From Candidatus Aminicenantales bacterium (GTDB lineage: Bacteria > Acidobacteriota > Aminicenantia > Aminicenantales > UBA4085), in NCBI GenBank assembly GCA_049515535.1, contig JBEKTZ010000001.1:268599-332598 (forward strand): 64,000 bases of DNA, written 5' to 3'. The notes beneath the pieces are model-generated. The model was not told the origin of the DNA. It worked only from the letters and a program-made list of their open reading frames with translations, and did not search any database. A program made the translations under genes and the position numbers. Below, piece after piece: positions 48,100-64,000 of the stretch (position 1 is the stretch's first letter; each line of letters begins with the position of its first letter).

Positions 48100-49425
48100 T
48101 TACCTCATTTCGTTCCTGTTTTCCAGGTTTTTCCGTCGCGCGTATAAGAACAGATCGATGAGCCGGGCGCGATCAAGCGTCTCCGTTTCCACGGCAAAGG
48201 CCGAAGAACGATAGAGATTCCAGTTGTTCCTGATGTCCGCGGGAAGATGAAGTCGATCATAGAGCGGACTCCCCGGCGGGATATAAAAGACCGACGGCCC
48301 GACGAGAACGCCGAGGCTCCATAGATATTCCATGCCGGCCCGGATCTCTTCGACCGACTGGCCCGGAAGTCCCATGATGACATAGACCGTCACGAAAAAT
48401 CCCTGACGGCGGGCCGCCCGAATCAAGCGCTCGAAATCCTCTTTTTCCACCGGCCGATGATAGCGTTCCTTGATCTCCCCGCTCCGGGTGACATACGACA
48501 GATTGAGTTCGCGGAATCCGGCCGCAGCCATGTCCGGCAGCAGGTTTTCGTCGAGAGTCATCGAGCAAAGCCCATTCATGGCCGTCAACTCGATGTTCTC
48601 GAGCGTTTTGTCCTCTTTGATCGCCTTCAATAATTCCAGAAACCACGGCCTGTCGAAGGAAAGGTTGTCGTCCTCGAAATTGAAAACGCGAACGCGCCGA
48701 TGGAGATAAGCCGCGCGCATCTCGTCCAGCACGCCCTCGACGGGCCGGTAGCGGATCGTCCGGCCGAACATGGAGTGCACGCCGCAGAAATCGCAACGGA
48801 GCGGGCAGCCGCGGCCGCCGATGAGACTCAGATAATTCCTTTGGCCGATCTTGTAGAGTTCCGCCGGAACGAGATCGTGAGCCGGCCGCGTCAAGGTCCA
48901 GTCTCCACCCGATTCGTTCCGGGGAATTCCCAAAGCCTTCAACACGTCGGGAAGGCATTCTTCGGCCGGACCGGCGAAAACATGATCGATCTCCGGCGTC
49001 CGCCGCTTGATCTCTTCCGGAAAGGCGGTGGCATGATGCCCTCCGACGAAAATCGGAAGCCCGAATTCACGCTTGATCCGTCGGGCCAGTTCCTCGACGC
49101 TTTGGTAATAGGCCGTGAACTGCGAGGAGATGCCGATCGCCTCCGGCCCGAATTCCCTGATCCTCCGGATAATCTCTTCCTCGGAGAGGCCGAATCGATG
49201 ATAGCCTTTGAAGAACAGCGGCTCGCGCAAATAGGGTTCGAGATAGGCCATTTCGCGGGGGACGGGCTTGGGGCGCTTCCGGAGCGGAGACAGACAATCC
49301 AGGACGCGGACCTCGCAACCCGCATCCCGAAGCGCGCTCGCCGTATAGAGCAGGCCGAGAGGATAGAGCCGGATGGGCGTCGCGTAAAAATCCTCGAACG
49401 GGGGCTGGATGAGGAGAATTTTCAT
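48100..49425 (-). CDS. Cobalamin-binding radical SAM protein
   Basis: MKILLIQPP, PLGLLY, GGHHAT, RGCPLRCDFC, EDDN; start 49425 or 49449. Confidence 0.9.
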   Translation of the reverse strand: MKILLIQPPFEDFYATPIRLYPLGLLYTASALRDAGCEVRVLDCLSPLRKRPKPVPREMAYLEPYLREPLFFKGYHRFGLSEEEIIRRIREFGPEAIGISSQFTAYYQSVEELARRIKREFGLPIFVGGHHATAFPEEIKRRTPEIDHVFAGPAEECLPDVLKALGIPRNESGGDWTLTRPAHDLVPAELYKIGQRNYLSLIGGRGCPLRCDFCGVHSMFGRTIRYRPVEGVLDEMRAAYLHRRVRVFNFEDDNLSFDRPWFLELLKAIKEDKTLENIELTAMNGLCSMTLDENLLPDMAAAGFRELNLSYVTRSGEIKERYHRPVEKEDFERLIRAARRQGFFVTVYVIMGLPGQSVEEIRAGMEYLWSLGVLVGPSVFYIPPGSPLYDRLHLPADIRNNWNLYRSSAFAVETETLDRARLIDLFLYARRKNLENRNEMR

Positions 49426-49540
49426 CCGCGATGCTCCGGAAGGAATCATGCGTACAGTATAGCGTTGTGACTTTAAATATGAAAATATTTGAAAATCATA
49501 TAAAATGATCCTCAGCATGAATTCACCGGAAAGGCTCTCG

Positions 49541-51031
49541 ATGAAGAAAAAAGCTTTGATTCTTGTTTTCTTGTCGCTGGCTTTAAGCGTATTATCGTTT
49601 GCCGGCGGAGACCAGGACACCAATTGTTATACGATCGTCGTCGGCAAGAAAGCCAGCGCCGACGGGTCGGTCATCGTCGGACATAATGAAGACGACTCGG
49701 GAAACATCATCGTCAATCTCCGGAAAATCAAGGCGCGAAACTACGGTTCGCCTCAGCGCGTCGACCTCGGTAAAGGCGCCGTTTATGAAACGGACGGAAC
49801 GACCAGGGAATTCTTGTGGATCGAAGCGACAACCCAGGAATTCGCCGACAGCTTCATCAATCAGAACGGACTCCTCATCACCTCGGACAGCTGCTCTTCC
49901 AAGGAGACGAAAAAGGATTTCACGGATGGCGGAATCGGATATATGCTCAGAAGGATCGTCGCCGAGAAGGCCCCCTCCGCGAAAGAGGCGGTGAGAATCG
50001 CCTCCGAGCTTGTGGAAAAATACGGCTATACGGGCTCGGGAAGGACTTACATATTCGCCGATAAAAATGAGGCTTGGATGATGGCGATCATCAAGGGCCG
50101 GCATTGGTTCGCCCAGAGGGTCCCCGATGACGAGATCGCCGTCATTCCCAATTATTATACGATCAGGAAAATCGACCTGAACGACAAAGACCATTTCGCG
50201 GGCAGCCGCGATATCGTCGATTATGCCCGGAAAAACAGCTGGTACGATGAAACCAAGGACGGTCCGTTCGATTTCAAGACGGCCTTTTCCCGCTCCCGCG
50301 GCTCGGACCCGGTCTTCGACGGCAATACTCTTCGCCACTGGAGAGGTTTGAACTATTTCGACGATAAAAAACACGAGATCGGCGATCCTTATCCTTTCTC
50401 CTTCAAGCCCGGGAAAAAGGTCACCGCGGAATCGCTCATGAACATCCTCCGGGATCATTACGAAGGAACGGAATACGACGATACGGACGGCTACCGGCTC
50501 GGCACGCCGAACAAGACGAAACACAGATGCATCTGCACGGCTTCGACGATCGTCTCATTCATCGCTTCCCTGAACGCCGATCGCCCCGAGCCGATCTCCA
50601 TCTCTTTGTGGATCGCCCTGGGGAAGCCCGACACGACGGTCTATCTGCCTTTGTATTATGGGGTTGAAAACCTGCCGCAGAGCGCGGGACTGGGGGCCGA
50701 TATCCACGATTATCCGCTCTTCTATAAACAGCATTTCGACGATGCCGAATGGAAAGCCCGGAAAGATCAACTTCTGCACACGAATGTTCTGCGGCTTCAG
50801 AAGATCGCCGAAGCGGATTACGCTCATATGCGGGAAAGGATAGACCGGGAATGCTCCCCCGTCGAAAAAGAATTTGTGGAAAACAAGGGGAAATTCGAAT
50901 CGGAAATTTCGTCCCTATATGCGAAAGACAAAAAAGAAGCGCAGAGAAGGCTGACGGCCTATGTGACGGGCGCGTTTGATAAAATCAACAATCTCTACGA
51001 AAGAATATTGAAGACGTTCCCCGGAAACTGA
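49541..51031 (+). CDS. C69-family dipeptidase, secreted
   Basis: Signal peptide then CYTIVVGKKASADGSVIVGHNED; AQRVPDD; LRDHYEGT. Confidence 0.88.
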   Translation: MKKKALILVFLSLALSVLSFAGGDQDTNCYTIVVGKKASADGSVIVGHNEDDSGNIIVNLRKIKARNYGSPQRVDLGKGAVYETDGTTREFLWIEATTQEFADSFINQNGLLITSDSCSSKETKKDFTDGGIGYMLRRIVAEKAPSAKEAVRIASELVEKYGYTGSGRTYIFADKNEAWMMAIIKGRHWFAQRVPDDEIAVIPNYYTIRKIDLNDKDHFAGSRDIVDYARKNSWYDETKDGPFDFKTAFSRSRGSDPVFDGNTLRHWRGLNYFDDKKHEIGDPYPFSFKPGKKVTAESLMNILRDHYEGTEYDDTDGYRLGTPNKTKHRCICTASTIVSFIASLNADRPEPISISLWIALGKPDTTVYLPLYYGVENLPQSAGLGADIHDYPLFYKQHFDDAEWKARKDQLLHTNVLRLQKIAEADYAHMRERIDRECSPVEKEFVENKGKFESEISSLYAKDKKEAQRRLTAYVTGAFDKINNLYERILKTFPGN

Positions 51032-53842: not shown

Positions 53843-54321
53843 CTAATAATACCTATCCATCGCCCGGTACTGAATGGCTTCGCTCAAATGGGAGGGGCTG
53901 ATATCTTTCTCCCCGGCCAAATCCGCGATCGTCCGGGCGACCTTGAGCGACCGGTCATAAGCCCTCGCGCTGAATCCCAGCCTATCCACAGCCGCCTCGA
54001 GCAGCTTCTCCCCTTCCCGGCCGATGCGGCAGAATATCTTCACCTCTTTCGGTCCCATCTGAGCATTGGCATAGATCCGCCGGCCCTCGAATCGCTCGAG
54101 CTGTCTCAGCCTGGCCCGGCCGACCCGGTTTCGAATCTCTTCCGAGCTCTCTCCCTCGGTCTTCGAGATGATGTCCTGGAACTTGACGCCGGGGGCCTCG
54201 ACCTGAATGTCGATGCGGTCAAGGAGCGGGCCGGAGATCTTCGCATAATACCGGCTCCTCTGAGCCTCGGTGCATTCGACATCCGGGCTCCCGGGACTCC
54301 GAAAAACGTCCTCGCAGGGTT
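53843..54321 (-). pseudogene. comM: 3' fragment of comM/YifB (Mg-chelatase-like AAA+ ATPase) cut by element insertion
   Basis: KISGPLLDRIDI, SARAYDRSLKVARTIADL, HLSEAIQYR; similarity ends at the expected AAMNPC motif (reads TQPC). Confidence 0.9.
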
Positions 54322-54324
54322 GCG

Positions 54325-54753
54325 TTGCCAAGTTGCCATTTGACTTTAAAGGCCCAGAAACCGGTTCACAGGGAGAAATACCCTGATTTCCTACGAACTT
54401 GGGGCGATCACATTAAGACCCGAAGGCTCGATTTGAAGCTCACCAAGCGCCAACTTTCCCTCAAGTTTCATGTTGACGATACAACGATATATCTTTGGGA
54501 GAGGAATAAAGTGAGGCCGTCCCTTGTCCAGATTCCGAAGATTATTGAGTTCTTGGGACGAGATCCGTTTGAGAAAAAAACCGATAATTTAGCCGACCGA
54601 ATTAAAGATTATAGACGGATTCGCGGATTATCTAGAAAAAAACTCGCTGAACAATTAGGAATCGACCTATCGACTCTGAAGGGATGGGAAACTGGAAAAC
54701 ACCAGCAATCAAAGAGATTTCAAGAGAGAGTTTTGAATCTTATTTCTGAATAA
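54325..54753 (+). CDS. Double XRE-HTH protein at the element junction
   Basis: Two HTH_3-like units (RRLDLKLTKRQLS...TIYLWE; RRIRGLSRKKLAEQLGI...TLKGWETG). Confidence 0.8.
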   Translation: MPSCHLTLKAQKPVHREKYPDFLRTWGDHIKTRRLDLKLTKRQLSLKFHVDDTTIYLWERNKVRPSLVQIPKIIEFLGRDPFEKKTDNLADRIKDYRRIRGLSRKKLAEQLGIDLSTLKGWETGKHQQSKRFQERVLNLISE

Positions 54754-54837
54754 AAGTCGGCCTCTTGTCCGCGTCAAGCCGCAGACAAGAGGATTGCATT
54801 CATCATAAATATATTATAGCACAAAATTTCTTGTCAA

Positions 54838-54871
54838 CAAAAAAAGGGTTATGTTTTTCATAACCCCTTTT
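54838..54871 (-). terminator. Intrinsic terminator
   Basis: gggttatg/cataaccc stem with A/T tracts right after the stop of 54870-55406. Confidence 0.7.
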
Positions 54872-55406
54872 AGTAATCAATAAATGTACCGTCCTTTTTG
54901 AGCATGAATCGTGCCATGGTGGAGGAACTATTTGCGTCGGGGAATCCCTGCATTGTATTGACCATAATCTTGGCCAACTCTTGAGTAAATCCCGTCTCCA
55001 CAACTTTCAATGTGAATTTGTAGCCCACAAGGTTGGTTCCTTTGTCTACGCCATCGTATCGAGCTGGATCGTATGCTAAAATACAATATGTCCCGGCCGC
55101 ATACTTTTTGTTGAGTCTGCCCGTGAAATTATAATCATTAACTCTTGTGGAGTCAAGTACCCGATCATAATTTCCGCCACCATATAAATCAAAACACACA
55201 CCTGGAGTATCAACCAACTTTTTCACATCTACTACCCCAACTCTCGTGTATGCGTATTCTAACGTGTAATAACTGGCTGGTTCGGGCGGTTGAGGCGTTG
55301 TGGGGGCTTTATCGCAGACAGCGAGAATTAGAACACCGGCAAAAACAGCGAAGGCAGTAATAATCAGCGCTCCAAGCCAACTGATTAATCTTCTCACTCC
55401 TATCAC
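54870..55406 (-). CDS. Hypothetical exported protein/lipoprotein
   Basis: Hydrophobic N-terminus then C-D-K and Pro-rich linker; beta-rich body; start 55406 or 55397. Confidence 0.6.
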   Translation of the reverse strand: MIGVRRLISWLGALIITAFAVFAGVLILAVCDKAPTTPQPPEPASYYTLEYAYTRVGVVDVKKLVDTPGVCFDLYGGGNYDRVLDSTRVNDYNFTGRLNKKYAAGTYCILAYDPARYDGVDKGTNLVGYKFTLKVVETGFTQELAKIMVNTMQGFPDANSSSTMARFMLKKDGTFIDY

Positions 55407-55454
55407 CTCCTATCACTCGCCCTCGCAAGCCCTCAACATTGCGAAAGTATTTAT

Positions 55455-56105
55455 TTATTTGGATATCAAGAGATCCTTCTCTCTAGCAGCAATTTCCTCA
55501 AAAGTCACGTTGGGATTTTCCTTGTACATTGTCATAAATAGATTTGTATTTTTTAATATGAACCGAATAATATATTCTGGCTTGATTCCCTTATTGCTGT
55601 GCCCCAAGTCTCGTCTAATAGCAAGGAAGAGATCAACCATTTTTATCATGGATTTCGCTTTTGGGGTATTGCCTTGTGATGTTAATTCCGCATTCCACTC
55701 CGCATAAGTTTTTATCACTCTGGGACCAGACCAAAGAACTAATTTGCGATGAGTTTCATGAAGAAAAGGTACTAAGTTCCCAGTCTTTTTGCTTTGTTGA
55801 TCATCGCCTGAAAAGATTTCAAATAGCTTTTTAAGAAAATCATCATAAAGACCGATTTTTTTATCTCTATGCGCAACTTCCCTGTCTTTCTTTGCTTCAA
55901 AATAACGGGCAAGCACAACCGTAAAAACTGAAGATAAAACAGCTATTACGCCAGCTATTATCGCAGCTGAAACTTCGGGTACGGAAGCGTTCAGAAGTTG
56001 AAAGAAAAAGGCACCTATTTTATACAAGCCATAAAAGATGAAAATGATTATTGCGAAGAAAAATACCAAAATTAAAGATGTTTTCCATTTATTCTTTGAT
56101 TTCAT
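55455..56105 (-). CDS. Hypothetical protein with two N-terminal TM helices
   Basis: 216-aa ORF, two hydrophobic segments then soluble helical domain. Confidence 0.65.
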   Translation of the reverse strand: MKSKNKWKTSLILVFFFAIIIFIFYGLYKIGAFFFQLLNASVPEVSAAIIAGVIAVLSSVFTVVLARYFEAKKDREVAHRDKKIGLYDDFLKKLFEIFSGDDQQSKKTGNLVPFLHETHRKLVLWSGPRVIKTYAEWNAELTSQGNTPKAKSMIKMVDLFLAIRRDLGHSNKGIKPEYIIRFILKNTNLFMTMYKENPNVTFEEIAAREKDLLISK

Positions 56106-56283
56106 TTTCTATCCCCCATCGGTAACCCTCGGATTGTATTATAACAAAATACCATGTTTATTTTCTCATCCTCTTCAACGCCTGAAGGATGACCTGCGCC
56201 ACGGCTTCCCGTTTCGCTTTCTTCTTGTTTATTTTCTGCTTATTATTTCTGAATTATGTCTTATATCTATAATCTCATTCTTC

Positions 56284-57051
56284 CTAGTCTTGTTTTCTGC
56301 CGCTTTCTTTTGGAATATTGCTATTTCTATGAACAGTCGTTTCAATATCTATTAATCCCCCAGCCTCGTTTTCCTTTTTTATTGGTTGGACAATACTCTT
56401 CATCTGGTGCAATAAATTGTTAATAGTCTTAAACCCTGAATACATCGGTCCGAACAAGAAATAAATTATCATTCCAGAGAAAATAAGGCTTGAATTAATG
56501 CTTAGCAAGAATAATTCATCATTCCGGTTTACCATGTTTTTATTTATGTCTAGCATTTTCGTGTACCAAGTCATGAGCGCACCCGCATAAACGATTAATA
56601 CCGTAACCATTAATTGTTTCACGGCAGAGATAGCCTCTTTCAGATATTCAATCTGCACTGTTGACTCATAAGTCATCTGACGCGGATCAAGAGAATATGT
56701 ATCTAGTTTATCTTGAATTGCAATAGTTGCTATTGACATAATTATGACATAGCCACAAACCACTGTTATATTCATATGGGGAATCTCAGGTGTAAATATT
56801 GGAAGCGTCAAGAGATATGCAAAACCAAATGGGATAAGGCTCCAATACAATTCACGGATACGTTTGGTTTTTTGAAGAATTATTAGTTCAGATATTACGA
56901 GAATTACAATGATTGGGATAGTTAAAAATTGAAAAGGGTAATATCTTGCCCCATAACTGACATGGGAGGTCAGCTTAGGATCAATAAATATAGGGGCTAA
57001 AATGGAAATAATATACCCCACAAAATACGCGAAAAAAAGAACGCGTTTCAT
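56284..57051 (-). CDS. Hypothetical polytopic membrane protein
   Basis: 255-aa AT-rich ORF with about six hydrophobic segments. Confidence 0.6.
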   Translation of the reverse strand: MKRVLFFAYFVGYIISILAPIFIDPKLTSHVSYGARYYPFQFLTIPIIVILVISELIILQKTKRIRELYWSLIPFGFAYLLTLPIFTPEIPHMNITVVCGYVIIMSIATIAIQDKLDTYSLDPRQMTYESTVQIEYLKEAISAVKQLMVTVLIVYAGALMTWYTKMLDINKNMVNRNDELFLLSINSSLIFSGMIIYFLFGPMYSGFKTINNLLHQMKSIVQPIKKENEAGGLIDIETTVHRNSNIPKESGRKQD

Positions 57052-57252
57052 CTTCTCAGATCTTCGAAATTACTATCGTTAATATATATTATAGATCGGC
57101 TTTTTTCAATTTCACAATTAAATTAACCTAATATCGTTCTGCATTATTAGCCGAAAGCCAAGGGGGAATTACTATATCGCTCGATAAATTATTTATCTTT
57201 CTTACGTTATCTGAGATTTGAATCAAAGCATATTGCTCCTACCATTTGGTAA

Positions 57253-59439
57253 TTATTCCTTCTCCCTCATTCTCTTCATCGCCTGCAAAATCACATTCGC
57301 CACGGCCTCTCGTTTAGCTTTTTTCTCGTCCTCGCTCGCCGCTTGGTATTGAACTTTGACCTTATAACCCTTGACCCTTTCTTCCTTGGTCAATTCGGCG
57401 GCGGATTCTTCTTCAAGGAACATTAACAGCTCTTCGGGCTGAAAGAAATAAATCTTTTTTTGTTCTGATTCCGCGATATTTTTAGACGCGAGAGCCTTGA
57501 TACTTTCTAACGTTTTTTTATCTGGCGAGCAAACTATAACCTTCTCATAACCGGCCGCCAGACATTTCTTAATATTCTTAAGCTCCTGATCTTCTGTCGA
57601 GGTTATAGAGATTTCACAAGCAATCTTTCTTCCGTCCCGCTCAAGGCTGACATCTACCTTGCCTGATCCGTCAAGAACGGGAAGCTCGATTGTAGCTTTG
57701 TATCCCTTGTCCTCTGCGATCTTCTTAATAAGATTCTGAAGATACCGATGCTGAGAAACGGATTTATCTTTTAGAAGCGCGGGCTCTACTTTAGGTTGTT
57801 TTTTTTCTTCGGGAATCTCTGGGACTTTTTCTTTCGGAGGGACAGCGACTTTTGCTATTTCTGTTTCTTTTTTTTGTATTTCTTTCTTATATTCTTTTCT
57901 GTACGGTTTCGCTCTTTCGCTAATTTGTGTCTCTCTCGCCATGCTTTCGGCGGCGAGCTTTTCCCGCTCCACAACATATTTCCGACCAAAGGGAATAGAT
58001 TTAAACCATTTCTCAAACTGCTCTTCTGTCTGCCCAAGTATCTCGGTAAATACCTCTTGGGCGGTTTCAATATAAACCGTATTAATGGGAATAACGCCGC
58101 CCTCGATTTTATGCTTTACATAGCAGATTCTCGGTTCAAGGGTCTGAAGCTCTTTGAAATGCTGCTCCCATTCTTCGCTCAAGCTCCAAAAAACAGGACT
58201 CAACTTCCTTACGGTCTTGACTTCCTGGCCCGAATACTCGAAGGCTTCTTTGGCGAGTGTTTGGGAATCGTATCGGTTGAGCCGAAAATAAACTTGGATT
58301 CCTGTATTTCCTAAAATCAGGCTTCTTAGCTCTTCAGGGATCTGCGCCAAGGTCTGATGGGCCATGATTAAAGAAAGACCGTATTTCCGGGCTTCGGACA
58401 AAATAACCGAAAACGACTCGCTGGCAAAACTTTGAAACTCGTCGATGTACATATAAAAAGGAGTTCGTTTCTTTTGCGGAAGGTCTGAGCGCGAGAACGC
58501 GGCCATCTGGATTTTCGCCATAAATAAGGAGCCCAAGAGATCGGCTGAATCCTTGAGCTTGCCCTTGTCGAGTTTTATGAGGACGATCTTTTGATTGTCA
58601 ATCGCTTCTCGCATATTAAAAGAGCTTTTCGGATGAGACAAAATGTATCTTATCCTATCATCCACAAGAAAAGCGTTGATCTTATTCAGCGTACTTTCTG
58701 CCCAAAACGCCCTCATCTTGGGCGTCCAGGAATTAAAAACTTTGAAATACTGCCGTGTAACGGGATTGCGGATATTCAATACAACGCTTTCTCGGAAGTA
58801 GTAATCCGTAAGCAGAAGCGGAAGCTCTGCCAGAGTCATATTGTTTTCCGAAAGCGCGATAAAAGAGTTTATCAGCATCTCTTCCATCCTCGCGCCCCAG
58901 GAATCCTTCCAAATTGTCTTTAACGCGCCGACAAGCTCGCCAGCAAGCTCAGCTTCGGAAATGCCGGGGATTCTCTCTAATGGATTGAACGTGACCGTAT
59001 AATTCGGGTCTGTTGGGTCAATAAGAATAACCTTGTCTGTTATCTCCGAATCGTCCGGGCTGTATTGCAGGATCAAAAAGCCTTTAACGTCTTCGATTAA
59101 ATCGCCGTGCGGATCAATAACTCCGAAGCCGTTTCCTTTCTCAATATCCTGCTTAATCAGGTATTCTAGAAATTTTGTCTTGCCCGTTCCGGTAGCCCCG
59201 ACAACGTATAAGTGCGTAGCTCGGTCTTTTTCAGCGATTTTAGCCAGCTGGAATTCGTCTTTGTTTTCGGAATAGTACCAACCGAGGTTAAGAGTTTTTT
59301 CGGATTCTTTGTCGGATTTATTTTCGATCTGATTTATAGATTCTTCTTCAACGGGTTTTTGTTCAGCTTTTTCTTCAGGCGGAGCGGACTCGTTGGGATC
59401 TTCGAAAAGCTGAATCATTTTCCTTTTGAATAGACCCAT
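57253..59439 (-). CDS. VirD4/TraD-like (type IV coupling protein-like) ATPase with C-terminal extension
   Basis: THLYVVGATGTGKT, VIDPHGDL, FNPL, YIDEFQ, SEARKYGLSLIMAHQ, LGNT. Confidence 0.85.
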   Translation of the reverse strand: MGLFKRKMIQLFEDPNESAPPEEKAEQKPVEEESINQIENKSDKESEKTLNLGWYYSENKDEFQLAKIAEKDRATHLYVVGATGTGKTKFLEYLIKQDIEKGNGFGVIDPHGDLIEDVKGFLILQYSPDDSEITDKVILIDPTDPNYTVTFNPLERIPGISEAELAGELVGALKTIWKDSWGARMEEMLINSFIALSENNMTLAELPLLLTDYYFRESVVLNIRNPVTRQYFKVFNSWTPKMRAFWAESTLNKINAFLVDDRIRYILSHPKSSFNMREAIDNQKIVLIKLDKGKLKDSADLLGSLFMAKIQMAAFSRSDLPQKKRTPFYMYIDEFQSFASESFSVILSEARKYGLSLIMAHQTLAQIPEELRSLILGNTGIQVYFRLNRYDSQTLAKEAFEYSGQEVKTVRKLSPVFWSLSEEWEQHFKELQTLEPRICYVKHKIEGGVIPINTVYIETAQEVFTEILGQTEEQFEKWFKSIPFGRKYVVEREKLAAESMARETQISERAKPYRKEYKKEIQKKETEIAKVAVPPKEKVPEIPEEKKQPKVEPALLKDKSVSQHRYLQNLIKKIAEDKGYKATIELPVLDGSGKVDVSLERDGRKIACEISITSTEDQELKNIKKCLAAGYEKVIVCSPDKKTLESIKALASKNIAESEQKKIYFFQPEELLMFLEEESAAELTKEERVKGYKVKVQYQAASEDEKKAKREAVANVILQAMKRMREKE

Positions 59440-59479
59440 TCGCTTGAGTATATTCTACACAAAAAAAGAAGGAATTACC

Positions 59480-60004
59480 TTAAGAAATTCCCAGAAACCC
59501 TTTGGATTTGCGGTCGATCTGTGAGGTATCTTGACCCTTCCCCGTCATCATTTTTTCGATCGCCTTCAGCATGCAATGATGAACAACGGTCGCGTAAGCG
59601 TTCAGGTCCTGCTGTTGAAAAATATCGAGGTTCAGGGAAAGGGCTTTGTCCGAAGCGCCGCTGGTCAGGACATTGGAGAGCTTTTTCGAAAAGAAGCCCG
59701 GCTCGCAAGTCATAAACCAGGAGATGTCTAAGGCTTTTCCGTAATCCCTCGCCCCGATAAACATCCGATAATCGCCCAGAGCGTCGTTTTCGACCATCAA
59801 ATAGCTTCGCTCGTTGCCCAAGATGCCCTTGAGCCAGCTCGGCCTGACCTTAACACGATCAAAAGTGATGCCCGGAGCTTGCATTTCTTTAACATTGGCT
59901 TCAGTATCCGTGTAAATCTGCTCTGCCAGACCCTGGGCATCCTCGACGATCATAGACCAGCGATCTATGATCTTCTCGTCTTTAAGCGTGATTTTTCCAA
60001 ACAT
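59480..60004 (-). CDS. Hypothetical element backbone protein
   Basis: AAGGAGG RBS before ATG 60004; co-oriented upstream of the VirD4-like gene. Confidence 0.7.
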   Translation of the reverse strand: MFGKITLKDEKIIDRWSMIVEDAQGLAEQIYTDTEANVKEMQAPGITFDRVKVRPSWLKGILGNERSYLMVENDALGDYRMFIGARDYGKALDISWFMTCEPGFFSKKLSNVLTSGASDKALSLNLDIFQQQDLNAYATVVHHCMLKAIEKMMTGKGQDTSQIDRKSKGFLGIS

Positions 60005-60051
60005 AGGAGCCTCCTTTTTTAAGTTCTCGCTCGCCCGTTCCGTCCCCGAGC

Positions 60052-60078
60052 AAAAACAAAAAAGGGACGCCACCCTTT
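60052..60078 (-). terminator. Intrinsic terminator-like hairpin
   Basis: Minus strand AAAGGG-tggcgt-CCCTTT then TTTGTTTTT. Confidence 0.6.
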
Positions 60079-60157
60079 ATATTGCTAATTTCTATGAATA
60101 CCTATTCCCATTGGCGCGGATTCTACAGGAAGCGATTATTAAAAGGCAAGGACTATT

Positions 60158-60226
60158 TCACTTGCTCGTTTTGGATAAAGATAAAGAGACTCGCTGCTCC
60201 ATAAAAGATAGTCTTCCTTCTTTCAT
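60158..60226 (-). CDS. Unannotated 22-aa ORF MKEGRLSFMEQRVSLSLSKTSK, candidate radical SAM substrate peptide
   Basis: Read by hand; GGGGAGGAAAGGTCTATT precedes ATG; starts 57 nt downstream of rSAM stop. Confidence 0.5.
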   Translation of the reverse strand: MKEGRLSFMEQRVSLSLSKTSK

Positions 60227-60283
60227 AATAGACCTTTCCTCCCCATATATTTTTTCGTATAATACTCTTTATAATTATAATAT

Positions 60284-61369
60284 TTACGGTATTTCTTCCG
60301 TAACTCCTCTTAAGCCATCACCATATATGTCGTCAATACTATAATTCCTCAACCCAGCAATTTCTTTAATTTCATCAATATGTTGATTGATTGTTGTTAT
60401 TAAATATTTTGTTAATTCGCAATAAACCCTTTTCTGGTCCACGGAATACTCCAAGAGGCATTTTCTGCATCGTCCCAAACAAATGTTTGTAACCTCGCAT
60501 TTCCTGCAATCCTCAAAAATATCCTCATGAGTTTCCTCAGGCATGTTTTGGGTGCCATTATTAATATTTCCCAGTATCCCCTTTTCCGATCCTATATACT
60601 CATCGCAAATATAAATACTGCCATCTAATCCGATCGCTTTGTAATGATTCGTCGTCCCGCAACGAAACGATTTTCCATTATTGTTATAATCAAAAACTAG
60701 AGAGGAAACTATGACCTGGAAAGGAATAATTTTGAGTATCTCGCCTTTCTTAAAATGATCTAACCACAAATCAAATAATTCAGATACACCCTTTTTATAA
60801 TTTACGATGAATTTTTCTTTGTTCTCGAAACTTGGCTTGTTGACGAGTTGCCAATATACAGCGTCGACTTCTTTTAGAATGTTGTTGGCTGAAGAATAAA
60901 TATCGGTTTCTTCTTCTACTGTTATTCTTCCGATCACCGTAGAATAAAGCTGCGGTTTCATCTTTTTAATATTGTCGATAATGACTTTATACGTTCCTTT
61001 TCCTCTGTATTTTTCATGTGCCTTTTGATCACCATCTAAGGATACGAGTATCACGTCCAAACTATTTAGCACTGAGAGCGGAACGCGATCAAGCAACAAT
61101 CCATTTGTATAGACGGCGAAAGAGGCATTTATTGGAGATAGCCTCCTAATGAACTCACCCATTATTTTTGGCTTAAGCAACGGCTCGCCGCCAAAAAATA
61201 CCACCCGGGTTTCTTCGTTTTTATCCTTTTCTTTTATAATATATTTAATTATTTCTTCGATTCGTTTTCTTGATAAATTAAGTTTTTGGTCATTCGATAA
61301 GACCTCTTTTGCTAAACAATACGTACAGCGCATATTGCAGTTATAAGTTAAAAAAATGTAATATTCCAT
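60284..61369 (-). CDS. Radical SAM/SPASM enzyme (resembles putative peptide-modifying AF0577/TIGR04084-like family)
   Basis: CNMRCTYC, FFGGEPLL, YTNG, SLDG; SPASM cysteines FRCG...ICD...CRKCEVTNICLGRC...YC; C-terminal EEIP. Confidence 0.85.
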   Translation of the reverse strand: MEYYIFLTYNCNMRCTYCLAKEVLSNDQKLNLSRKRIEEIIKYIIKEKDKNEETRVVFFGGEPLLKPKIMGEFIRRLSPINASFAVYTNGLLLDRVPLSVLNSLDVILVSLDGDQKAHEKYRGKGTYKVIIDNIKKMKPQLYSTVIGRITVEEETDIYSSANNILKEVDAVYWQLVNKPSFENKEKFIVNYKKGVSELFDLWLDHFKKGEILKIIPFQVIVSSLVFDYNNNGKSFRCGTTNHYKAIGLDGSIYICDEYIGSEKGILGNINNGTQNMPEETHEDIFEDCRKCEVTNICLGRCRKCLLEYSVDQKRVYCELTKYLITTINQHIDEIKEIAGLRNYSIDDIYGDGLRGVTEEIP

Positions 61370-61389
61370 ATCTTATTGACTTTTTAAAT

Positions 61390-62046
61390 TTATTTTCTTT
61401 TTGCTTGAGCCTCGATTCTTTGACGTGCTGGAGCTTGCCTCATACCAAATTCGTCCTTTTTATAATAATTATAAACTGTTACTTTTTGCCCGTGTCGTAT
61501 CTTATACTCGCCGATATCTAATAACTCGGCTGCCCCCCTAGTACCATTTCTCTTTGTTTCTTTCGCTAAATCTTCATGTACCAGAATCTGGTTTTTTCTC
61601 GCCAAACCCATCATTCGATTTGCCATGTTAATTCCAAATCCAAATAAGTTGTTACTTTCGTTCAAATCTACGTACCTGATGTTAGGACCTTTTGCAATTC
61701 CCATTCTTATCGGTATCTTTTTTTTGAGGAGCTCATTATATATATTCAGAGCCATGTCCAGAACGGCTGATGAATGGAAATCAAGCGGATTGAATCCTAT
61801 CGCGTACCCGTCCCCTGTTGGGATTAGAATTAAATGGTTGTGCTTATCTCTTTCATCCCAGTCATAATTACCATAAAGCAGAGAATTTAACACTTTTTCA
61901 ATCGCTTCAATAATTTCTTCCATTTTTTCATTTGTAGGTATTTTGGTGAATCCAACAACGTCAAAAAAAACAACAGTATTGCAAACAGGAAAATGTCTCG
62001 GGATTTTGCCTCTCACATAATCAAAAGGGTCCGTTTTAGTCGTCAT
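61390..62046 (-). CDS. Standalone class III nucleotide cyclase-domain protein
   Basis: FFDVVGFT, PTGDG, IRMGIAKGP, GINMANR, NQILV; GGGGGAGG RBS before ATG 62046. Confidence 0.85.
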   Translation of the reverse strand: MTTKTDPFDYVRGKIPRHFPVCNTVVFFDVVGFTKIPTNEKMEEIIEAIEKVLNSLLYGNYDWDERDKHNHLILIPTGDGYAIGFNPLDFHSSAVLDMALNIYNELLKKKIPIRMGIAKGPNIRYVDLNESNNLFGFGINMANRMMGLARKNQILVHEDLAKETKRNGTRGAAELLDIGEYKIRHGQKVTVYNYYKKDEFGMRQAPARQRIEAQAKRK

Positions 62047-62097
62047 ATTTGCCTCCCCCAATCTAGAACACGTTACGTTCGCTCTCTTACTTCATGA

Positions 62098-62126
62098 AGT
62101 ATAGAAAAAATTAAATGGCTAGTCAA
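62098..62126 (-). promoter_or_regulatory. Sigma70 promoter for the cyclase-rSAM cassette
   Basis: TTGACT(62126-62121)-17-TATACT(62103-62098). Confidence 0.75.
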
Positions 62127-62142
62127 GGGCTTAAAAATGGCT

Positions 62143-62637
62143 TCAAAACGGTGGTGACCATAAATTCACCACAGCCAACGCTACTGCCTCGAACATCCGA
62201 ATAAAATAAAGGTTCTTTTGGACTTTCTCTTTCCCTAAATTGGGAGAGAGTGCAGGATACCGCCTCACAATCTCCTCGATCAGATTCTTTTTATTCAGCT
62301 TCCCGCCTTCGATAAGAGACTTCTCGATTTCTTTAATCGAATACTGACAGACCTTCAGGCCCTTTCGCCGCGCAACGTCTTTAATCTTTTTGGCTACTCT
62401 TAGTAACTTCCCCGTCCTCCTTGCGGGATGGAGTTTTTTAATTGCCAAGACGTTCGGCTGGTATCGGTCGATTATTTCGGAGACGATTCCGATAGCCTTC
62501 TTAATTTTCCCCTCCTTCCACTTCCCCGCCAGGACCTTGATTCCCCAGTCCATAAGCTCTTCGCCGTAGAGGATGGCGAAGCCAAGATATCTCGTTCCGG
62601 GATTAATCCCGATTATTCTTAGAGGTTCTTTTGTCAT
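62143..62637 (-). CDS. RuvC-fold protein with altered catalytic residues
   Basis: IIGINPGTRYLGFAIL, YSIKEIEK, NKKNL, FEAVALA. Confidence 0.7.
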   Translation of the reverse strand: MTKEPLRIIGINPGTRYLGFAILYGEELMDWGIKVLAGKWKEGKIKKAIGIVSEIIDRYQPNVLAIKKLHPARRTGKLLRVAKKIKDVARRKGLKVCQYSIKEIEKSLIEGGKLNKKNLIEEIVRRYPALSPNLGKEKVQKNLYFIRMFEAVALAVVNLWSPPF

Positions 62638-63100
62638 ATCGTTTTAGTAGTCGTCGTATCGGTTTTAAATTATTAAAACCTTCCGTCCCGTTATTCTTGT
62701 TAATTAATTTTATTTCTTTATTATTGTTTATGTTCCCTGGTGTCTCATCCCTTGTATCTCTTTTGTCTCTTACCTGTATCTCGTTTGGCGTATACGGCTT
62801 TAAAAGAAAATATATACAGCGGCCTCTCGTCTTTCGAACTCTCACAAGCTTGAGGTCTTTCAGTATTCTGACTTTTCGGTTAACAGTTTTTCTGCTGAGC
62901 CCTATCCGATCAGCTATCGTCTTTTGAGTCGGAAAGCACGTCTGGCTCTTGGAATTCGCATAAGAGGCCAAGACGTTATAGACCCCGATCCCCGAGCTTC
63001 TAAGAATACGACCGTAATGATTTATAACGGGCTTGCTTACCCAATACCAGTTTTTATCACCCAAGCTTCGTATTTCATTTTCTCGTTTTTCGTTATTCAT
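62603..63100 (-). CDS. Winged-HTH (HTH_36-like) replication-initiator-like protein
   Basis: VYNVLASYAN...CFPTQKTIADRIGLSRKTVNR. Confidence 0.7.
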   Translation of the reverse strand: MNNEKRENEIRSLGDKNWYWVSKPVINHYGRILRSSGIGVYNVLASYANSKSQTCFPTQKTIADRIGLSRKTVNRKVRILKDLKLVRVRKTRGRCIYFLLKPYTPNEIQVRDKRDTRDETPGNINNNKEIKLINKNNGTEGFNNLKPIRRLLKRYDKRTSKNNRD

Positions 63101-63255
63101 AGTTTCAGTAAAACTTCTTACCCCAGACGTGCTCGCAGATGATTTGAGCGACGAGACAAAGATTCCGCCTCATTTCGTCTATGGATTTACAAGATAGCCC
63201 CCGCATTTTGAGAATGCGGCGATACTTTTCATATATGTCTGGGCGTGTCTTTCTT

Positions 63256-63534
63256 TTAGTCATGCTTTCGTCTCAAATATTCTTCTCTCTCCATAATCTT
63301 TCTCTTAATCATCCGGATCAAAGGGAAAAACAAGGCATCTACCAATACGCTGTATATGCCCGACAATTTGATCACGTTAGTCAAGCTCGGCAGGCAGATG
63401 CCTTTTTCCCATCGGGAGATCATTCCCGCACTCTTAAGATTCAGGATTTCCGCGACATCCTTCTGCTTCAATCCTACGGCTTTTCTGTATCTCCTCAGAT
63501 TATTTGGAATCATTTTTATTTCGACCTTTTTCAT
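63256..63534 (-). CDS. XRE-family HTH regulator
   Basis: NNLRRYRKAVGLKQKDVA...ISRWEKG; AAGGAGAG RBS. Confidence 0.85.
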   Translation of the reverse strand: MKKVEIKMIPNNLRRYRKAVGLKQKDVAEILNLKSAGMISRWEKGICLPSLTNVIKLSGIYSVLVDALFFPLIRMIKRKIMEREEYLRRKHD

Positions 63535-63802
63535 GCTCTCCTTGGTTTAATGGTTATACTTTTCAGAATAGGCCGAGCGCGAAGACAAAACAAGACATGA
63601 AAATTTGCCTTTTCAGGCAATTTTTAGGTAAATTTGTTAAAAAGATGTGGAGAATATTAAAAAACCACCGAAAATTGACAAAGTAATAGCGAGCTTTCAC
63701 AAAGACTCTGTTTTTATTTTTTAGGAGAATATTTACAATTTACAAAAAGCATTTTCCAAGAAAGAGTTTTCCGAGAAAGAGAGATTATTATTGGTGCTTT
63801 TA

Positions 63803-64000
63803 TCAGTCGAATCTGAAACCGAAAAGACCGCCATCTTCTCTTGCGTCAGTCAACCTTGTTGACATAACGTATTTGCCTATATCAAATGTTGCTTGTGCTT
63901 CAACTTCGGCAAGTTTATCAGAATTCATAGTAACAATATATTGAAATCCCAATTCTGTCGCCAACTTAGCTCCTAGCATAAGGGCTGTGCCTACTTGACG
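63803..64000 (-). CDS. 3' end of DUF2326 / ABC-three-component (Lamassu-type) ATPase; not in ORF track
   Basis: Hand translation RQVGTALMLGAKLATELGFQYIVTMNSD...RLTDAREDGGLFGFRFD-stop. Confidence 0.75.
   Translation of the reverse strand, partial: RQVGTALMLGAKLATELGFQYIVTMNSDKLAEVEAQATFDIGKYVMSTRLTDAREDGGLFGFRFD

What the first reader, a model, noticed from the sequence alone, without database searches (positions are those of the whole stretch)
60158..62126. Self-contained cassette: atypical class III cyclase + radical SAM/SPASM enzyme + small peptide on a mobile element
Seen: an AT-rich cassette between backbone genes of the comM element, with its own promoter (TTGACT-17-TATACT), a sensor-less class III cyclase, an rSAM/SPASM gene 20 nt downstream, a 22-aa ORF, then a terminator-like hairpin. 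The cyclase keeps both metal-binding Asp (DVVGFT, GDG) and the N/R pair (INMANR), but reads IPTGD where adenylyl cyclases have KxxGD, so its nucleotide specificity is non-canonical. Known: standalone class III cyclases make antiphage signals in Pycsar, and SPASM rSAMs usually modify peptides or proteins. I know of no described system pairing the two. Inference: a nucleotide-signalling/defence module, or a RiPP-like pathway in which the cyclase fold acts as a nucleotidyl-transfer enzyme.
Basis: partly seen in the sequence, partly recalled or inferred. Interest (0 to 1): 0.85.

Follow-up and report, generated by a model that had tools for sequence, protein, structure and literature searches.

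The report
Cyclase plus radical-SAM gene pair
A small nucleotide-cyclase gene and a radical-SAM enzyme gene travel together as a rare two-gene unit that sits among anti-phage genes in unrelated bacteria, so it is probably an undescribed defence module whose chemistry is still unknown.

Summary
On the minus strand lie a 218-aa stand-alone class III cyclase (61390-62046) and, 20 nt downstream, a 361-aa radical SAM/SPASM enzyme (60284-61369). A promoter-like site precedes them, and a 22-aa ORF and a terminator-like hairpin follow.

The two enzyme genes form a conserved unit. In 9 distinct related loci with flanking sequence, a radical SAM gene is adjacent in 8, and in none of 56 loci with more distant cyclases. 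Their divergences are correlated. No other neighbour and no small peptide is conserved.

The pair is rare: 4 loci in 185,579 species genomes, and 1 of 401 genomes of its own phylum. It sits beside known defence genes in most loci. Here it lies on a ~30-kb island that splits comM.

The cyclase keeps its catalytic residues but has Ile/Asn where adenylyl cyclases have Lys/Asp. Close relatives are fused to TIR domains. The radical SAM enzyme is a bacterial offshoot of the mainly archaeal TIGR04084 family and resembles anSME and CteB without a leader-peptide-binding domain.

Best reading: a new two-enzyme, nucleotide-based defence module. The mechanism is inferred, not shown. The RiPP reading with the 22-aa peptide is not supported.

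The parts
62098..62126 (-). Promoter-like site TTGACT-17-TATACT, about 45 nt upstream of the cyclase ATG
   Evidence: It is the best of 10 consensus matches in the region, but the number of matches does not exceed the shuffles. Function is not shown.
61390..62046 (-). Stand-alone class III nucleotidyl-cyclase-fold protein, 218 aa, with no sensor domain. Metal Asp D29 and D79. Asn140/Arg144 sit at the transition-state positions. Ile75/Asn133 sit at the base-specifying positions.
   Evidence: PF00211 38.9 bits against a cut-off of 21.9. AF2 model pLDDT 92.6. Top Foldseek matches are guanylyl and adenylyl cyclase catalytic domains, E 3.7e-12.
60284..61369 (-). Radical SAM/SPASM enzyme, 361 aa, a TIGR04084-like bacterial branch. 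It has no RRE domain and ends in a conserved TEEIP.
   Evidence: Radical_SAM and Fer4_12. TIGR04084 205.9 bits against a cut-off of 225, aligned over the full length. Cys motifs and tail. Model pLDDT 89.4. Top structural matches are anSME, ChlB and CteB.
60158..60226 (-). 22-aa ORF (MKEGRLSFMEQRVSLSLSKTSK). Probably not part of the system.
   Evidence: Present. No similar ORF lies downstream of the radical SAM gene in L003, L004, L005, L006, L008 or L011, by inspection. The 3' region is not unusually structured, z +0.77, and has no Rfam match.
60061..60078 (-). Terminator-like hairpin followed by a T run, closing the two-gene unit
53843..54331 (-). 3' fragment of comM (162 aa). It marks one boundary of the ~30-kb island that carries the pair. 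The island runs past the end of the window.
   Evidence: Mg_chelatase_C, E 2.2e-33. The N-terminal 349 aa lie at G000:C1:353167-354216, next to a large serine recombinase. comM frames of 507-551 aa occur in 11 of the 17 relatives that had a match.

Best explanation
The cyclase and the radical SAM/SPASM enzyme form a horizontally mobile two-gene operon. It is most likely an undescribed anti-phage or anti-mobile-element defence module, carried here as cargo on a comM-integrated defence island.

The mechanism I think most likely is a two-enzyme nucleotide pathway. The cyclase-fold enzyme, probably a homodimer, uses an NTP. Its base pocket differs from both ATP- and GTP-specific cyclases. The SPASM enzyme then performs a radical modification on that nucleotide product or on its precursor. 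The result would be a modified nucleotide that either poisons phage replication, as viperin products do, or acts as a signal.

Shown: the genes, their folds, the conserved catalytic residues, the conserved adjacency, the co-divergence, the rarity and the defence-type neighbourhoods.

Inferred: the defence function, the enzymatic coupling, and the nature of the substrate and product.

My odds: defence module about 0.6. The nucleotide-pathway mechanism within it about 0.3 overall.
For: **Adjacency.**
- Of the loci with a cyclase at least 33% identical, 10 are distinct (L003 and L007 are identical). L001 ends 27 nt after the cyclase match.
- Of the other 9, 7 have the radical SAM gene directly downstream on the same strand. 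The gap is 2-27 nt, or the genes overlap.
- One locus (L002) has a 27%-identical radical SAM gene directly upstream. One locus (L010) has none.
- None of the 56 loci L012-L067, which hold more distant cyclases, has a radical SAM match.
- Eleven further cyclase/radical SAM protein pairs share identical longest-contig lengths.

**Co-divergence.** The Mantel correlation of pairwise distances is r 0.65 over 18 pairs and 0.72 without L002. None of 5000 permutations reached these values.

**Only the two genes are conserved.** Six window neighbours, including the 22-aa ORF, have no tblastn hit in L001-L067.

**Rarity and patchiness.**
- 4 loci in the genome collection of 185,579 species, in Desulfobaccales, Paludibacteraceae, Desulfomonilia and Oscillospiraceae.
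- 1 of 401 genomes of the window's own phylum.

**Defence neighbours at PADLOC E <= 1e-6.**
- L002: TIR/ThsB-like and PDC-S60.
- L003: HerA and a type II methyltransferase.
- L005: HNH, E 4e-89.
- L006: a Ppl/AriA-like ATPase and HEC-05/GmrSD.
- The window's island: ABC-3C/PDC-M68, Ppl-like, Cas4-like, and a Schlafen-type helicase with MazG-like.

**Close cyclase relatives are fused to TIR domains** (P0008, P0182, P0197).

**Catalysis is kept.** D29, D79, R114, N133 and R144 are invariant in the 30 aligned homologues, and K184 is nearly so. N133 aligns with the second base-specifying position of a rhodopsin guanylyl cyclase.

**Precedents, recalled from general knowledge.** Viperin with its adjacent nucleotide kinase, MoaA, QueE and BlsE are radical SAM enzymes that act on nucleotides or nucleosides. 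BlsE and viperins appear among the structural matches.
Against: - No experiment and no expression data exist. No RNA run holds the stretch.
- The cyclase matches no PADLOC model. The radical SAM enzyme matches pVip models only over its N-terminal core.
- Two loci lack a strong defence neighbour. L004 has only a Pfam PIN_12 protein. L011 has only a weak HEC-09 match.
- No copy was found in phage or plasmid records or in viral contigs.
- The closest characterised relatives of the radical SAM enzyme act on peptides or proteins, not nucleotides: anSME, CteB, PapB, QhpD and the SCIFF maturase.
- The radical SAM enzyme is colinear with the archaeal TIGR04084 family, tail included, with no extra domain. 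So its chemistry may have nothing to do with nucleotides.
- One close cyclase (L010) has no radical SAM partner.
Confidence: 0.5

Rival explanations
1. Maturase and substrate. The SPASM enzyme post-translationally modifies the cyclase-fold protein itself, for example by a cross-link or a side-chain oxidation. This would arm or regulate it, as anSME does for sulfatases and QhpD for QhpC. The pair could still be a defence module.
For: - All the nearest characterised relatives modify peptides or proteins.
- Like anSME, the enzyme lacks an RRE leader-binding domain. Its alignment to CteB starts at CteB residue 101.
- No separate precursor peptide is conserved, so the cyclase is the only conserved candidate substrate.
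- The gene order is substrate first, then maturase, with tight coupling.
- The cyclases have a clade-specific loop, YxWxE...N70, with an invariant Trp.
Against: - The cyclases have no invariant Cys or Ser of the kind anSME- or PapB-type enzymes use.
- The YxWxE loop is also present in TIR-fused relatives and in the L010 cyclase, which has no radical SAM partner.
- The conserved C-terminal GNPxxP tail is shared with thousands of kinase- and TPR-fused cyclase domains, so it is part of the fold and not a core peptide.
- Strict conservation of the catalytic residues shows that the cyclase is an enzyme and not merely a scaffold.
Confidence: 0.2
2. Signal plus effector, following Pycsar, CBASS and Thoeris logic. 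The cyclase senses infection and makes a cyclic nucleotide. That nucleotide switches on the radical SAM enzyme, which acts as the effector, for example by SAM depletion or by damaging a macromolecule.
For: - Partners are swapped in a modular way within the cyclase clade: TIR fusions (P0008, P0182, P0197), a HEAT fusion (P0189), a radical SAM gene in the operon, and a membrane protein after the L010 cyclase.
- Stand-alone cyclases are the signal makers in Pycsar (recalled).
Against: - The radical SAM enzyme has no recognisable nucleotide-sensor domain and is colinear with its archaeal relatives.
- No cNMP-binding domain lies in any neighbour scanned.
- Two of the three TIR fusions have lost a metal-binding Asp. 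There the cyclase domain acts as a sensor or scaffold, not as a signal maker.
Confidence: 0.15
3. Not defence. The pair is a small metabolic or biosynthetic cassette, for a modified nucleotide, a cofactor or a natural product, that happens to ride on mobile elements.
For: - The radical SAM enzyme's wider family is common in methanogens and other archaea, where it is probably housekeeping.
- L004 and L011 lack strong defence neighbours.
- L010 places a related cyclase next to SAM decarboxylase and DUF3326 genes.
Against: - The pair has a patchy, rare distribution across unrelated phyla.
- Defence genes lie within 8 kb in 4 of the 6 loci with usable flanks, and in the window's own island.
- Relatives are fused to TIR domains.
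- No further biosynthetic genes are conserved.
Confidence: 0.1
4. RiPP pathway. The 22-aa ORF is the precursor peptide, modified by the SPASM enzyme, with the cyclase fold acting as a nucleotidyl-transferase tailoring enzyme.
For: The ORF exists with a Shine-Dalgarno-like site, directly after a SPASM enzyme. PapB-type maturases are the second-best NCBIfam match, at 147.7 bits.
Against: - No similar small ORF follows the radical SAM gene in the 6 other distinct loci inspected.
- The peptide has no tblastn hit in L001-L067.
- It has no Cys.
- The enzyme has no RRE domain.
Confidence: 0.03

Closest known systems
Pycsar (PycC pyrimidine cyclase plus a cNMP-activated effector)
   Same: A small stand-alone class III cyclase-fold enzyme with non-purine-type specificity positions, in a short operon found in defence islands.
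   Different: No PADLOC PycC model matches. The partner is a radical SAM/SPASM enzyme with no cNMP-binding, TM or TIR effector architecture.
Prokaryotic viperins (pVip), often paired with a nucleotide kinase
   Same: A radical SAM enzyme paired with a nucleotide-processing enzyme in defence contexts. The N-terminal core matches pVip models at E 1.2e-18.
   Different: The match covers only residues 5-131. NCBIfam viperin_w_prok scores 59.8 bits against a cut-off of 180. This enzyme has a full SPASM domain with two auxiliary-cluster motifs, which viperins lack (the viperin architecture is recalled).
TIGR04084 (rSAM_AF0577) and the anSME/CteB/PapB-type SPASM enzymes
   Same: Full-length colinear match to TIGR04084, positions 1-347 of 347. 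It shares the ...E(E/I)IP C-terminus with the archaeal members. anSME and CteB are the best solved-structure matches.
   Different: It scores below the family cut-off (205.9 against 225). It is bacterial, mobile and always next to a cyclase. It has no RRE domain and no precursor peptide. The TIGR04084 family itself has no known function; I found no paper on it.
PAACC systems (ParA-associated cNMP cyclase), bioRxiv 10.64898/2026.10.19.760177. I read passages and section 32.
   Same: A cyclase domain with intact catalytic residues is proposed as an immune effector that makes a toxic nucleotide. One listed context is a three-gene neighbourhood with HSP90 and a radical SAM enzyme.
   Different: PAACC is described as a previously unrecognised domain, whereas this cyclase passes Pfam PF00211. 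No HSP90 or ParA gene lies in any locus scanned here. Whether the two families are the same could not be tested, because the preprint's sequences and supplements were not available.
The large 'PTGDG' branch of class III cyclase domains fused to kinases, TPR or WD40
   Same: It shares IPTGDG, DxNxxxN, GxGIN and the C-terminal GNPxxP. It has 2659 representatives at E <= 1e-10.
   Different: Those are multidomain chromosomal signalling proteins with no radical SAM neighbour (0 of 56 distant loci). The present clade is small and stand-alone, and has the extra YxWxE loop.

Membership tests
Class III nucleotidyl cyclase (PF00211) | Sequence and fold of the cyclase homology domain | tested here: met
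   PF00211 38.9 bits against a cut-off of 21.9. Top Foldseek matches are GC/AC catalytic domains, E 3.7e-12, TM 0.65-0.85.
Class III nucleotidyl cyclase (PF00211) | Two metal-binding Asp, plus transition-state Asn/Arg and a phosphate-binding Arg/Lys | tested here: met
   D29, D79, R114 and R144 are invariant. K184 is nearly invariant. N140 is present in most sequences. The assignment of D79 rests on its position at the hairpin turn in the model and on motif comparison, which is inference.
Class III nucleotidyl cyclase (PF00211) | Purine-specifying pair: Lys/Asp for ATP, or Glu/Cys-Ser for GTP | tested here: not met
   A hydrophobic residue (Ile75) and an invariant Asn133 occupy these positions. 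N133 aligns with the second specificity position of a rhodopsin guanylyl cyclase. The Ile75 assignment comes from motif comparison.
Pycsar | PycC-family cyclase | tested here: not met
   No PADLOC family at E <= 0.01 for the cyclase.
Pycsar | Adjacent effector with a cNMP-binding domain fused to TM or TIR | tested here: not met
   The partner is a radical SAM/SPASM enzyme. No cNMP-binding domain appears in the neighbours scanned.
Pycsar | Production of cCMP or cUMP | not testable with these tools
   Needs an enzyme assay.
Prokaryotic viperin (pVip) | Full-length match to viperin models, including the NTP-binding C-terminal part | tested here: not met
   The PADLOC pVip match covers residues 5-131 only. 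NF038283 scores 59.8 bits against a cut-off of 180.
Radical SAM/SPASM enzymes | CX3CX2C, a GGE SAM-binding motif and the seven-Cys SPASM motif | tested here: met
   C11/C15/C18. G60-G61-E62-P63 is invariant. C237, C255, C288, C291, C297, C301 and C317 are invariant. Pfam's own SPASM model PF13186 did not reach E 0.01.
TIGR04084 (rSAM_AF0577) | Score over the curated cut-off | tested here: not met
   205.9 bits against a cut-off of 225, but the alignment is full-length, 1-347 of 347 (205.5 bits). It is a near member: a divergent bacterial branch that shares the C-terminal tail.
RiPP maturase systems (sactipeptide, ranthipeptide and similar) | A conserved precursor peptide gene next to the maturase | tested here: not met
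   No shared small ORF downstream in the 6 other distinct loci. The 22-aa peptide has no hit in L001-L067.
RiPP maturase systems (sactipeptide, ranthipeptide and similar) | An N-terminal RRE (leader-binding) domain | tested here: not met
   The protein starts at the radical SAM core. Its alignment to CteB begins at CteB residue 101.
PAACC systems (2026 preprint) | Membership of the PAACC cyclase family, with ParA, PanA, TIM-B or HSP90 partners | not testable with these tools
   No PAACC sequences or profile were available. None of those partner genes was seen in the loci scanned.

The most novel reading that the evidence does not exclude
The pair is a new kind of antiviral nucleotide factory. 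A class III cyclase-fold enzyme with an Ile/Asn base pocket and a SPASM radical SAM enzyme together make a radical-modified nucleotide, cyclic or SAM-conjugated. This would be either a chain-terminating or toxic analogue, or a new immune second messenger. It would be the first link between SPASM radical chemistry and cyclase-based immunity.
Probability: 0.25. Interest if true: 0.85.

Novelty: new variant of a known kind. Interest (0 to 1): 0.62.

Why it matters
Nucleotide-based immunity (CBASS, Pycsar, Thoeris, type III CRISPR, viperins) is a main theme shared by bacterial and animal antiviral defence. A conserved cyclase plus SPASM radical SAM unit would add a new chemistry to it.

It would also give a first functional handle on two unstudied groups. 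One is TIGR04084-like radical SAM enzymes. The other is the very large 'PTGDG' branch of cyclase domains, whose nucleotide specificity is unknown.

The unit is only 1.8 kb and two genes, so it is easy to clone and test.

Tried and rejected
- **Complex prediction** of the radical SAM enzyme with the cyclase. The result was no verdict (score 0.00, under the mark). I use it as evidence neither way.
- **Expression.** No RNA holder is listed for the stretch. The only run is a DNA run that may be the source of this assembly. I did not use read laying, so co-transcription is untested.
- **Phage, plasmid and viral searches.** The cyclase had no match in plasmids, phages or viral contigs. The radical SAM enzyme had no match in plasmids. 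In viral contigs it found only distant relatives, with best-segment identity of at most 35%.
- **Cyclase C-terminal tail (EFGNPxxP) as a hidden core peptide.** Rejected, because the tail is conserved across the whole PTGDG family, including kinase and TPR fusions.
- **Radical SAM C-terminal TEEIP as a cyclase-docking tail.** Rejected as specific to the pair, because the more distant 370-404-aa homologues, which resemble the mainly archaeal clusters, end in CEIIP.
- **Divergent ~100-aa ORFs upstream of the cyclase** in L003, L004 and L005 as a third component. Rejected, because they are not similar to each other. The L004 one overlaps a tRNA-Pro.
- **RNA and repeats.** Rfam found nothing at 59900-62300. 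The 3' region folds no better than shuffles. No flanking repeats bound the cassette.
- **Literature.**
  - 'TIGR04084': 0 papers.
  - 'Pycsar' with 'SPASM': 0 papers.
  - 'AF0577': only accession-number noise.
  - The combined radical SAM, cyclase and defence searches gave nothing on this pair except the PAACC preprint.
Full report
**What is there.**

Three ORFs lie in a row on the minus strand of the window.
- Cyclase: 61390..62061 from a TTG. The ATG at 62046 follows GGGGGAGG and gives 218 aa. This is identical to the database gene call P0001.
- Radical SAM gene: 60284..61369, 361 aa, starting 20 nt after the cyclase stop.
- A 22-aa ORF at 60158..60226.

The flanking signals are as follows.
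- A TTGACT-17-TATACT site lies at 62126..62098, and a hairpin with a T run lies at 60078..60061.
- Promoter-like matches are no more frequent than in shuffles: 10 found against 8.3 +/- 3.1 expected. The promoter is therefore a consensus match only.
- No terminator-like site separates the pair from the upstream RuvC-like gene.
- G+C falls to 0.33-0.39 across the pair, against 0.42-0.50 beside it and 0.585 in the backbone.

**The island.**

The 162-aa ORF at 53843..54331 is the C-terminal part of ComM. The N-terminal 349 aa lie at G000:C1:353167-354216, next to a 500-aa large serine recombinase. So a ~30-kb element splits comM.

comM was searched in 20 relatives, and 17 had a match. In 11 of those 17 the open frame is 507-551 aa, against 351 aa here.

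The island also carries the following:
- a second serine recombinase;
- two TraD/HerA-like ATPases;
- an ABC-3C/PDC-M68 system that begins at window 63803;
- a Ppl-like PHP-SMC protein;
- a Cas4-like nuclease;
- a Schlafen-type helicase with AbiO/Nhi-like matches, next to a MazG-like gene.

**The cyclase.**

It passes Pfam PF00211 at 38.9 bits, above the cut-off of 21.9. Its AlphaFold model has pLDDT 92.6. The best matches among solved structures are guanylyl and adenylyl cyclase catalytic domains, such as 3et6 at E 3.7e-12.

In an alignment of 30 homologues the invariant residues are D29 (FFDVVGFT), P76-T77-G78-D79-G80, R114, D127, N129, N133, G136, G138, A142 and R144. K184 is nearly invariant.

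So the metal, transition-state and phosphate positions are kept. The base-specifying positions are Ile75 (by motif comparison, an inference) and Asn133. N133 aligns with the second specificity position of a rhodopsin guanylyl cyclase.

A whole-library profile search found 4375 representatives at E <= 1e-3, 2659 at E <= 1e-10 and 53 at E <= 1e-30.

I aligned the window protein with 15 of these hits: five close-tier fusions and ten short proteins from the distant tier. The alignment shows that IPTGDG, DxNxxxN, GxGIN and the C-terminal GNPxxP are features of the whole large branch. Pfam scans of 30 of the 150 listed hits show that this branch includes proteins fused to kinases, TPR and WD40.

The close tier has an extra YxWxE loop. 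It includes three TIR fusions (P0008, P0182, P0197) and a HEAT fusion. Two of the TIR fusions have lost a metal-binding Asp. All 30 stand-alone proteins keep both.

No PADLOC model, PycC included, matches the cyclase.

**The radical SAM enzyme.**

It has CX3CX2C, GGEP and the full seven-Cys SPASM pattern, all invariant in 32 homologues.

Its family matches are as follows.
- The best match is TIGR04084 at 205.9 bits over the full length, just under the cut-off of 225.
- Next come PapB, anSME and other peptide maturases.
- The viperin model scores far below its cut-off.
- PADLOC pVip models match only residues 5-131.

The model has pLDDT 89.4 and is closest to anSME, ChlB and CteB. By sequence the alignment to CteB starts at CteB residue 101, so there is no RRE domain.

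The nearest large clusters in the ESM Atlas are archaeal, mostly Methanobacteriota. Of the 120 listed homologues, 118 end in ...E-x-(I/L/M)-P, including the more distant 370-404-aa ones. The tail is therefore a family trait.

**The pair is a unit.**

I ran tblastn with both proteins against 67 fetched loci.
- A radical SAM match occurred in L002-L009 and L011.
- None occurred in L012-L067, the 56 loci with more distant cyclases.
- L013, one of those 56, holds only a cyclase fragment.

Among the loci with a close cyclase, L003 and L007 are identical, and L001 ends 27 nt after the cyclase match. Of the other 9 distinct loci:
- 7 have the radical SAM gene directly downstream, with a gap of 2-27 nt or an overlap;
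- L002 has a 27%-identical radical SAM gene directly upstream, ending in TEYTA;
- L010 has none. Its cyclase is followed by a 411-aa membrane protein, then SAM decarboxylase and DUF3326 genes.

Further support for the pairing:
- Eleven more cyclase/radical SAM pairs share identical longest-contig lengths. This is an inference of co-location, not a direct observation.
- Pairwise distances of the two proteins correlate: Mantel r 0.65 for 18 pairs and 0.72 without L002. None of 5000 permutations reached these values.
- Two caveats apply. Some pairs may be near-duplicates, and relatedness inflates such tests.
- The other window neighbours and the 22-aa peptide have no hit in L001-L067.
- No similar small ORF follows the radical SAM gene elsewhere (by inspection).

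**Distribution and context.**

The pair is rare and patchy.
- There are four loci in 185,579 species genomes, in Desulfobaccales, Paludibacteraceae, Desulfomonilia and Oscillospiraceae.
- Only the window's own genome scored among 401 genomes of its phylum.
- Nothing was found in plasmid or phage records.
- Viral contigs held no cyclase and only distant radical SAM genes.

Neighbours in the related loci:
- L002: integrase, a TIR/ThsB-like protein, a transposase, HipA, and a PDC-S60-like phosphoesterase.
- L003: HerA, a type II methyltransferase and a second radical SAM gene.
- L005: an HNH protein (PADLOC E 4e-89).
- L006: a Ppl/AriA-like ATPase and GmrSD/HEC-05.
- L004: a PIN_12 protein, and a tRNA-Pro about 530 nt upstream.
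- L011: a NYN protein with a weak HEC-09 match.

**Interpretation.**

Four lines of evidence fit a defence module better than a metabolic one: tight conserved pairing, patchy spread, defence-island neighbourhoods and TIR-fused relatives. The mechanism is open.

I favour a two-enzyme nucleotide pathway, because catalysis is strictly kept in the cyclases linked to a radical SAM gene, and because radical SAM enzymes that act on nucleotides are known (viperin, MoaA, BlsE; recalled).

The strongest rival is that the SPASM enzyme modifies the cyclase protein, since its nearest characterised relatives all act on peptides or proteins. A signal-plus-effector scheme is less likely, because the radical SAM enzyme has no added sensor domain relative to its archaeal relatives.

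The RiPP reading with the 22-aa ORF is not supported.

**Literature.**

I found nothing on this pair.

The nearest item is a 2026 preprint that defines a ParA-associated cNMP cyclase (PAACC). It lists, among other contexts, a three-gene neighbourhood with HSP90 and a radical SAM enzyme, and proposes a toxic-nucleotide effector role (passages and section 32 read).

I could not test whether the two cyclase families are the same. No HSP90 or ParA gene was seen in the loci scanned here.

Noticed in passing
window 53843-64000 and G000:C1:322930-353166 (L068, L069): A ~30-kb island splits comM. It has two large serine recombinases and carries several defence-type systems. These are ABC-3C/PDC-M68 (starting at window 63803), a Ppl-like PHP-SMC protein, a Cas4-like nuclease, a Schlafen-type helicase with a MazG-like gene, two TraD/HerA-like ATPases that match PADLOC 'mad8', and a DUF932 gene.
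   Followed up: partly
P0008, P0182, P0197 (proteins): Close relatives of the cyclase are fused to TIR domains. In two of the three, the first or both metal-binding Asp are replaced (D29 to S; D29 to G and D79 to N). There the cyclase domain probably acts as a sensor or scaffold. Their gene neighbourhoods could not be fetched.
   Followed up: partly
L010:733-4549: A 39%-identical cyclase has no radical SAM partner. It is followed by a 411-aa multi-pass membrane protein with a coiled coil. That gene overlaps a SAM decarboxylase gene, which is followed by a DUF3326 gene.
   Followed up: partly
ESM Atlas output for P0001: Two clusters of phage (Uroviricota) proteins of 522-593 aa combine ankyrin repeats with a cyclase-fold domain that is structurally similar to this one (TM 0.76-0.77). 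They could be phage counter-defence or mimicry proteins.
   Followed up: no
The genome search rows: Six of the 17 relatives with a match have comM frames of only 370-470 aa. They may carry other insertions at the same comM site, or the contigs may end there.
   Followed up: no
L013:375-533: A cyclase fragment, 46% identical over residues 116-206, lacks its N-terminal half and has no radical SAM gene nearby. It looks like a decayed copy.
   Followed up: no
L003:10002-10880 (minus strand): A second, unrelated 292-aa radical SAM gene lies convergent to the cyclase/radical SAM pair. A 430-aa unknown, a HerA ATPase and a DNA methyltransferase sit beside it. This may be a separate system.
   Followed up: no
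G000:C2:302105-302635: The same genome holds a second, distant PTGDG-type cyclase domain in a 397-aa frame (E 7.8e-21 to the profile). It is presumably a chromosomal signalling protein.
   Followed up: no
window 48100-49623 (minus strand): A B12-binding radical SAM protein (507 aa) lies in the chromosomal backbone outside the island. It is unrelated to the finding.
   Followed up: no
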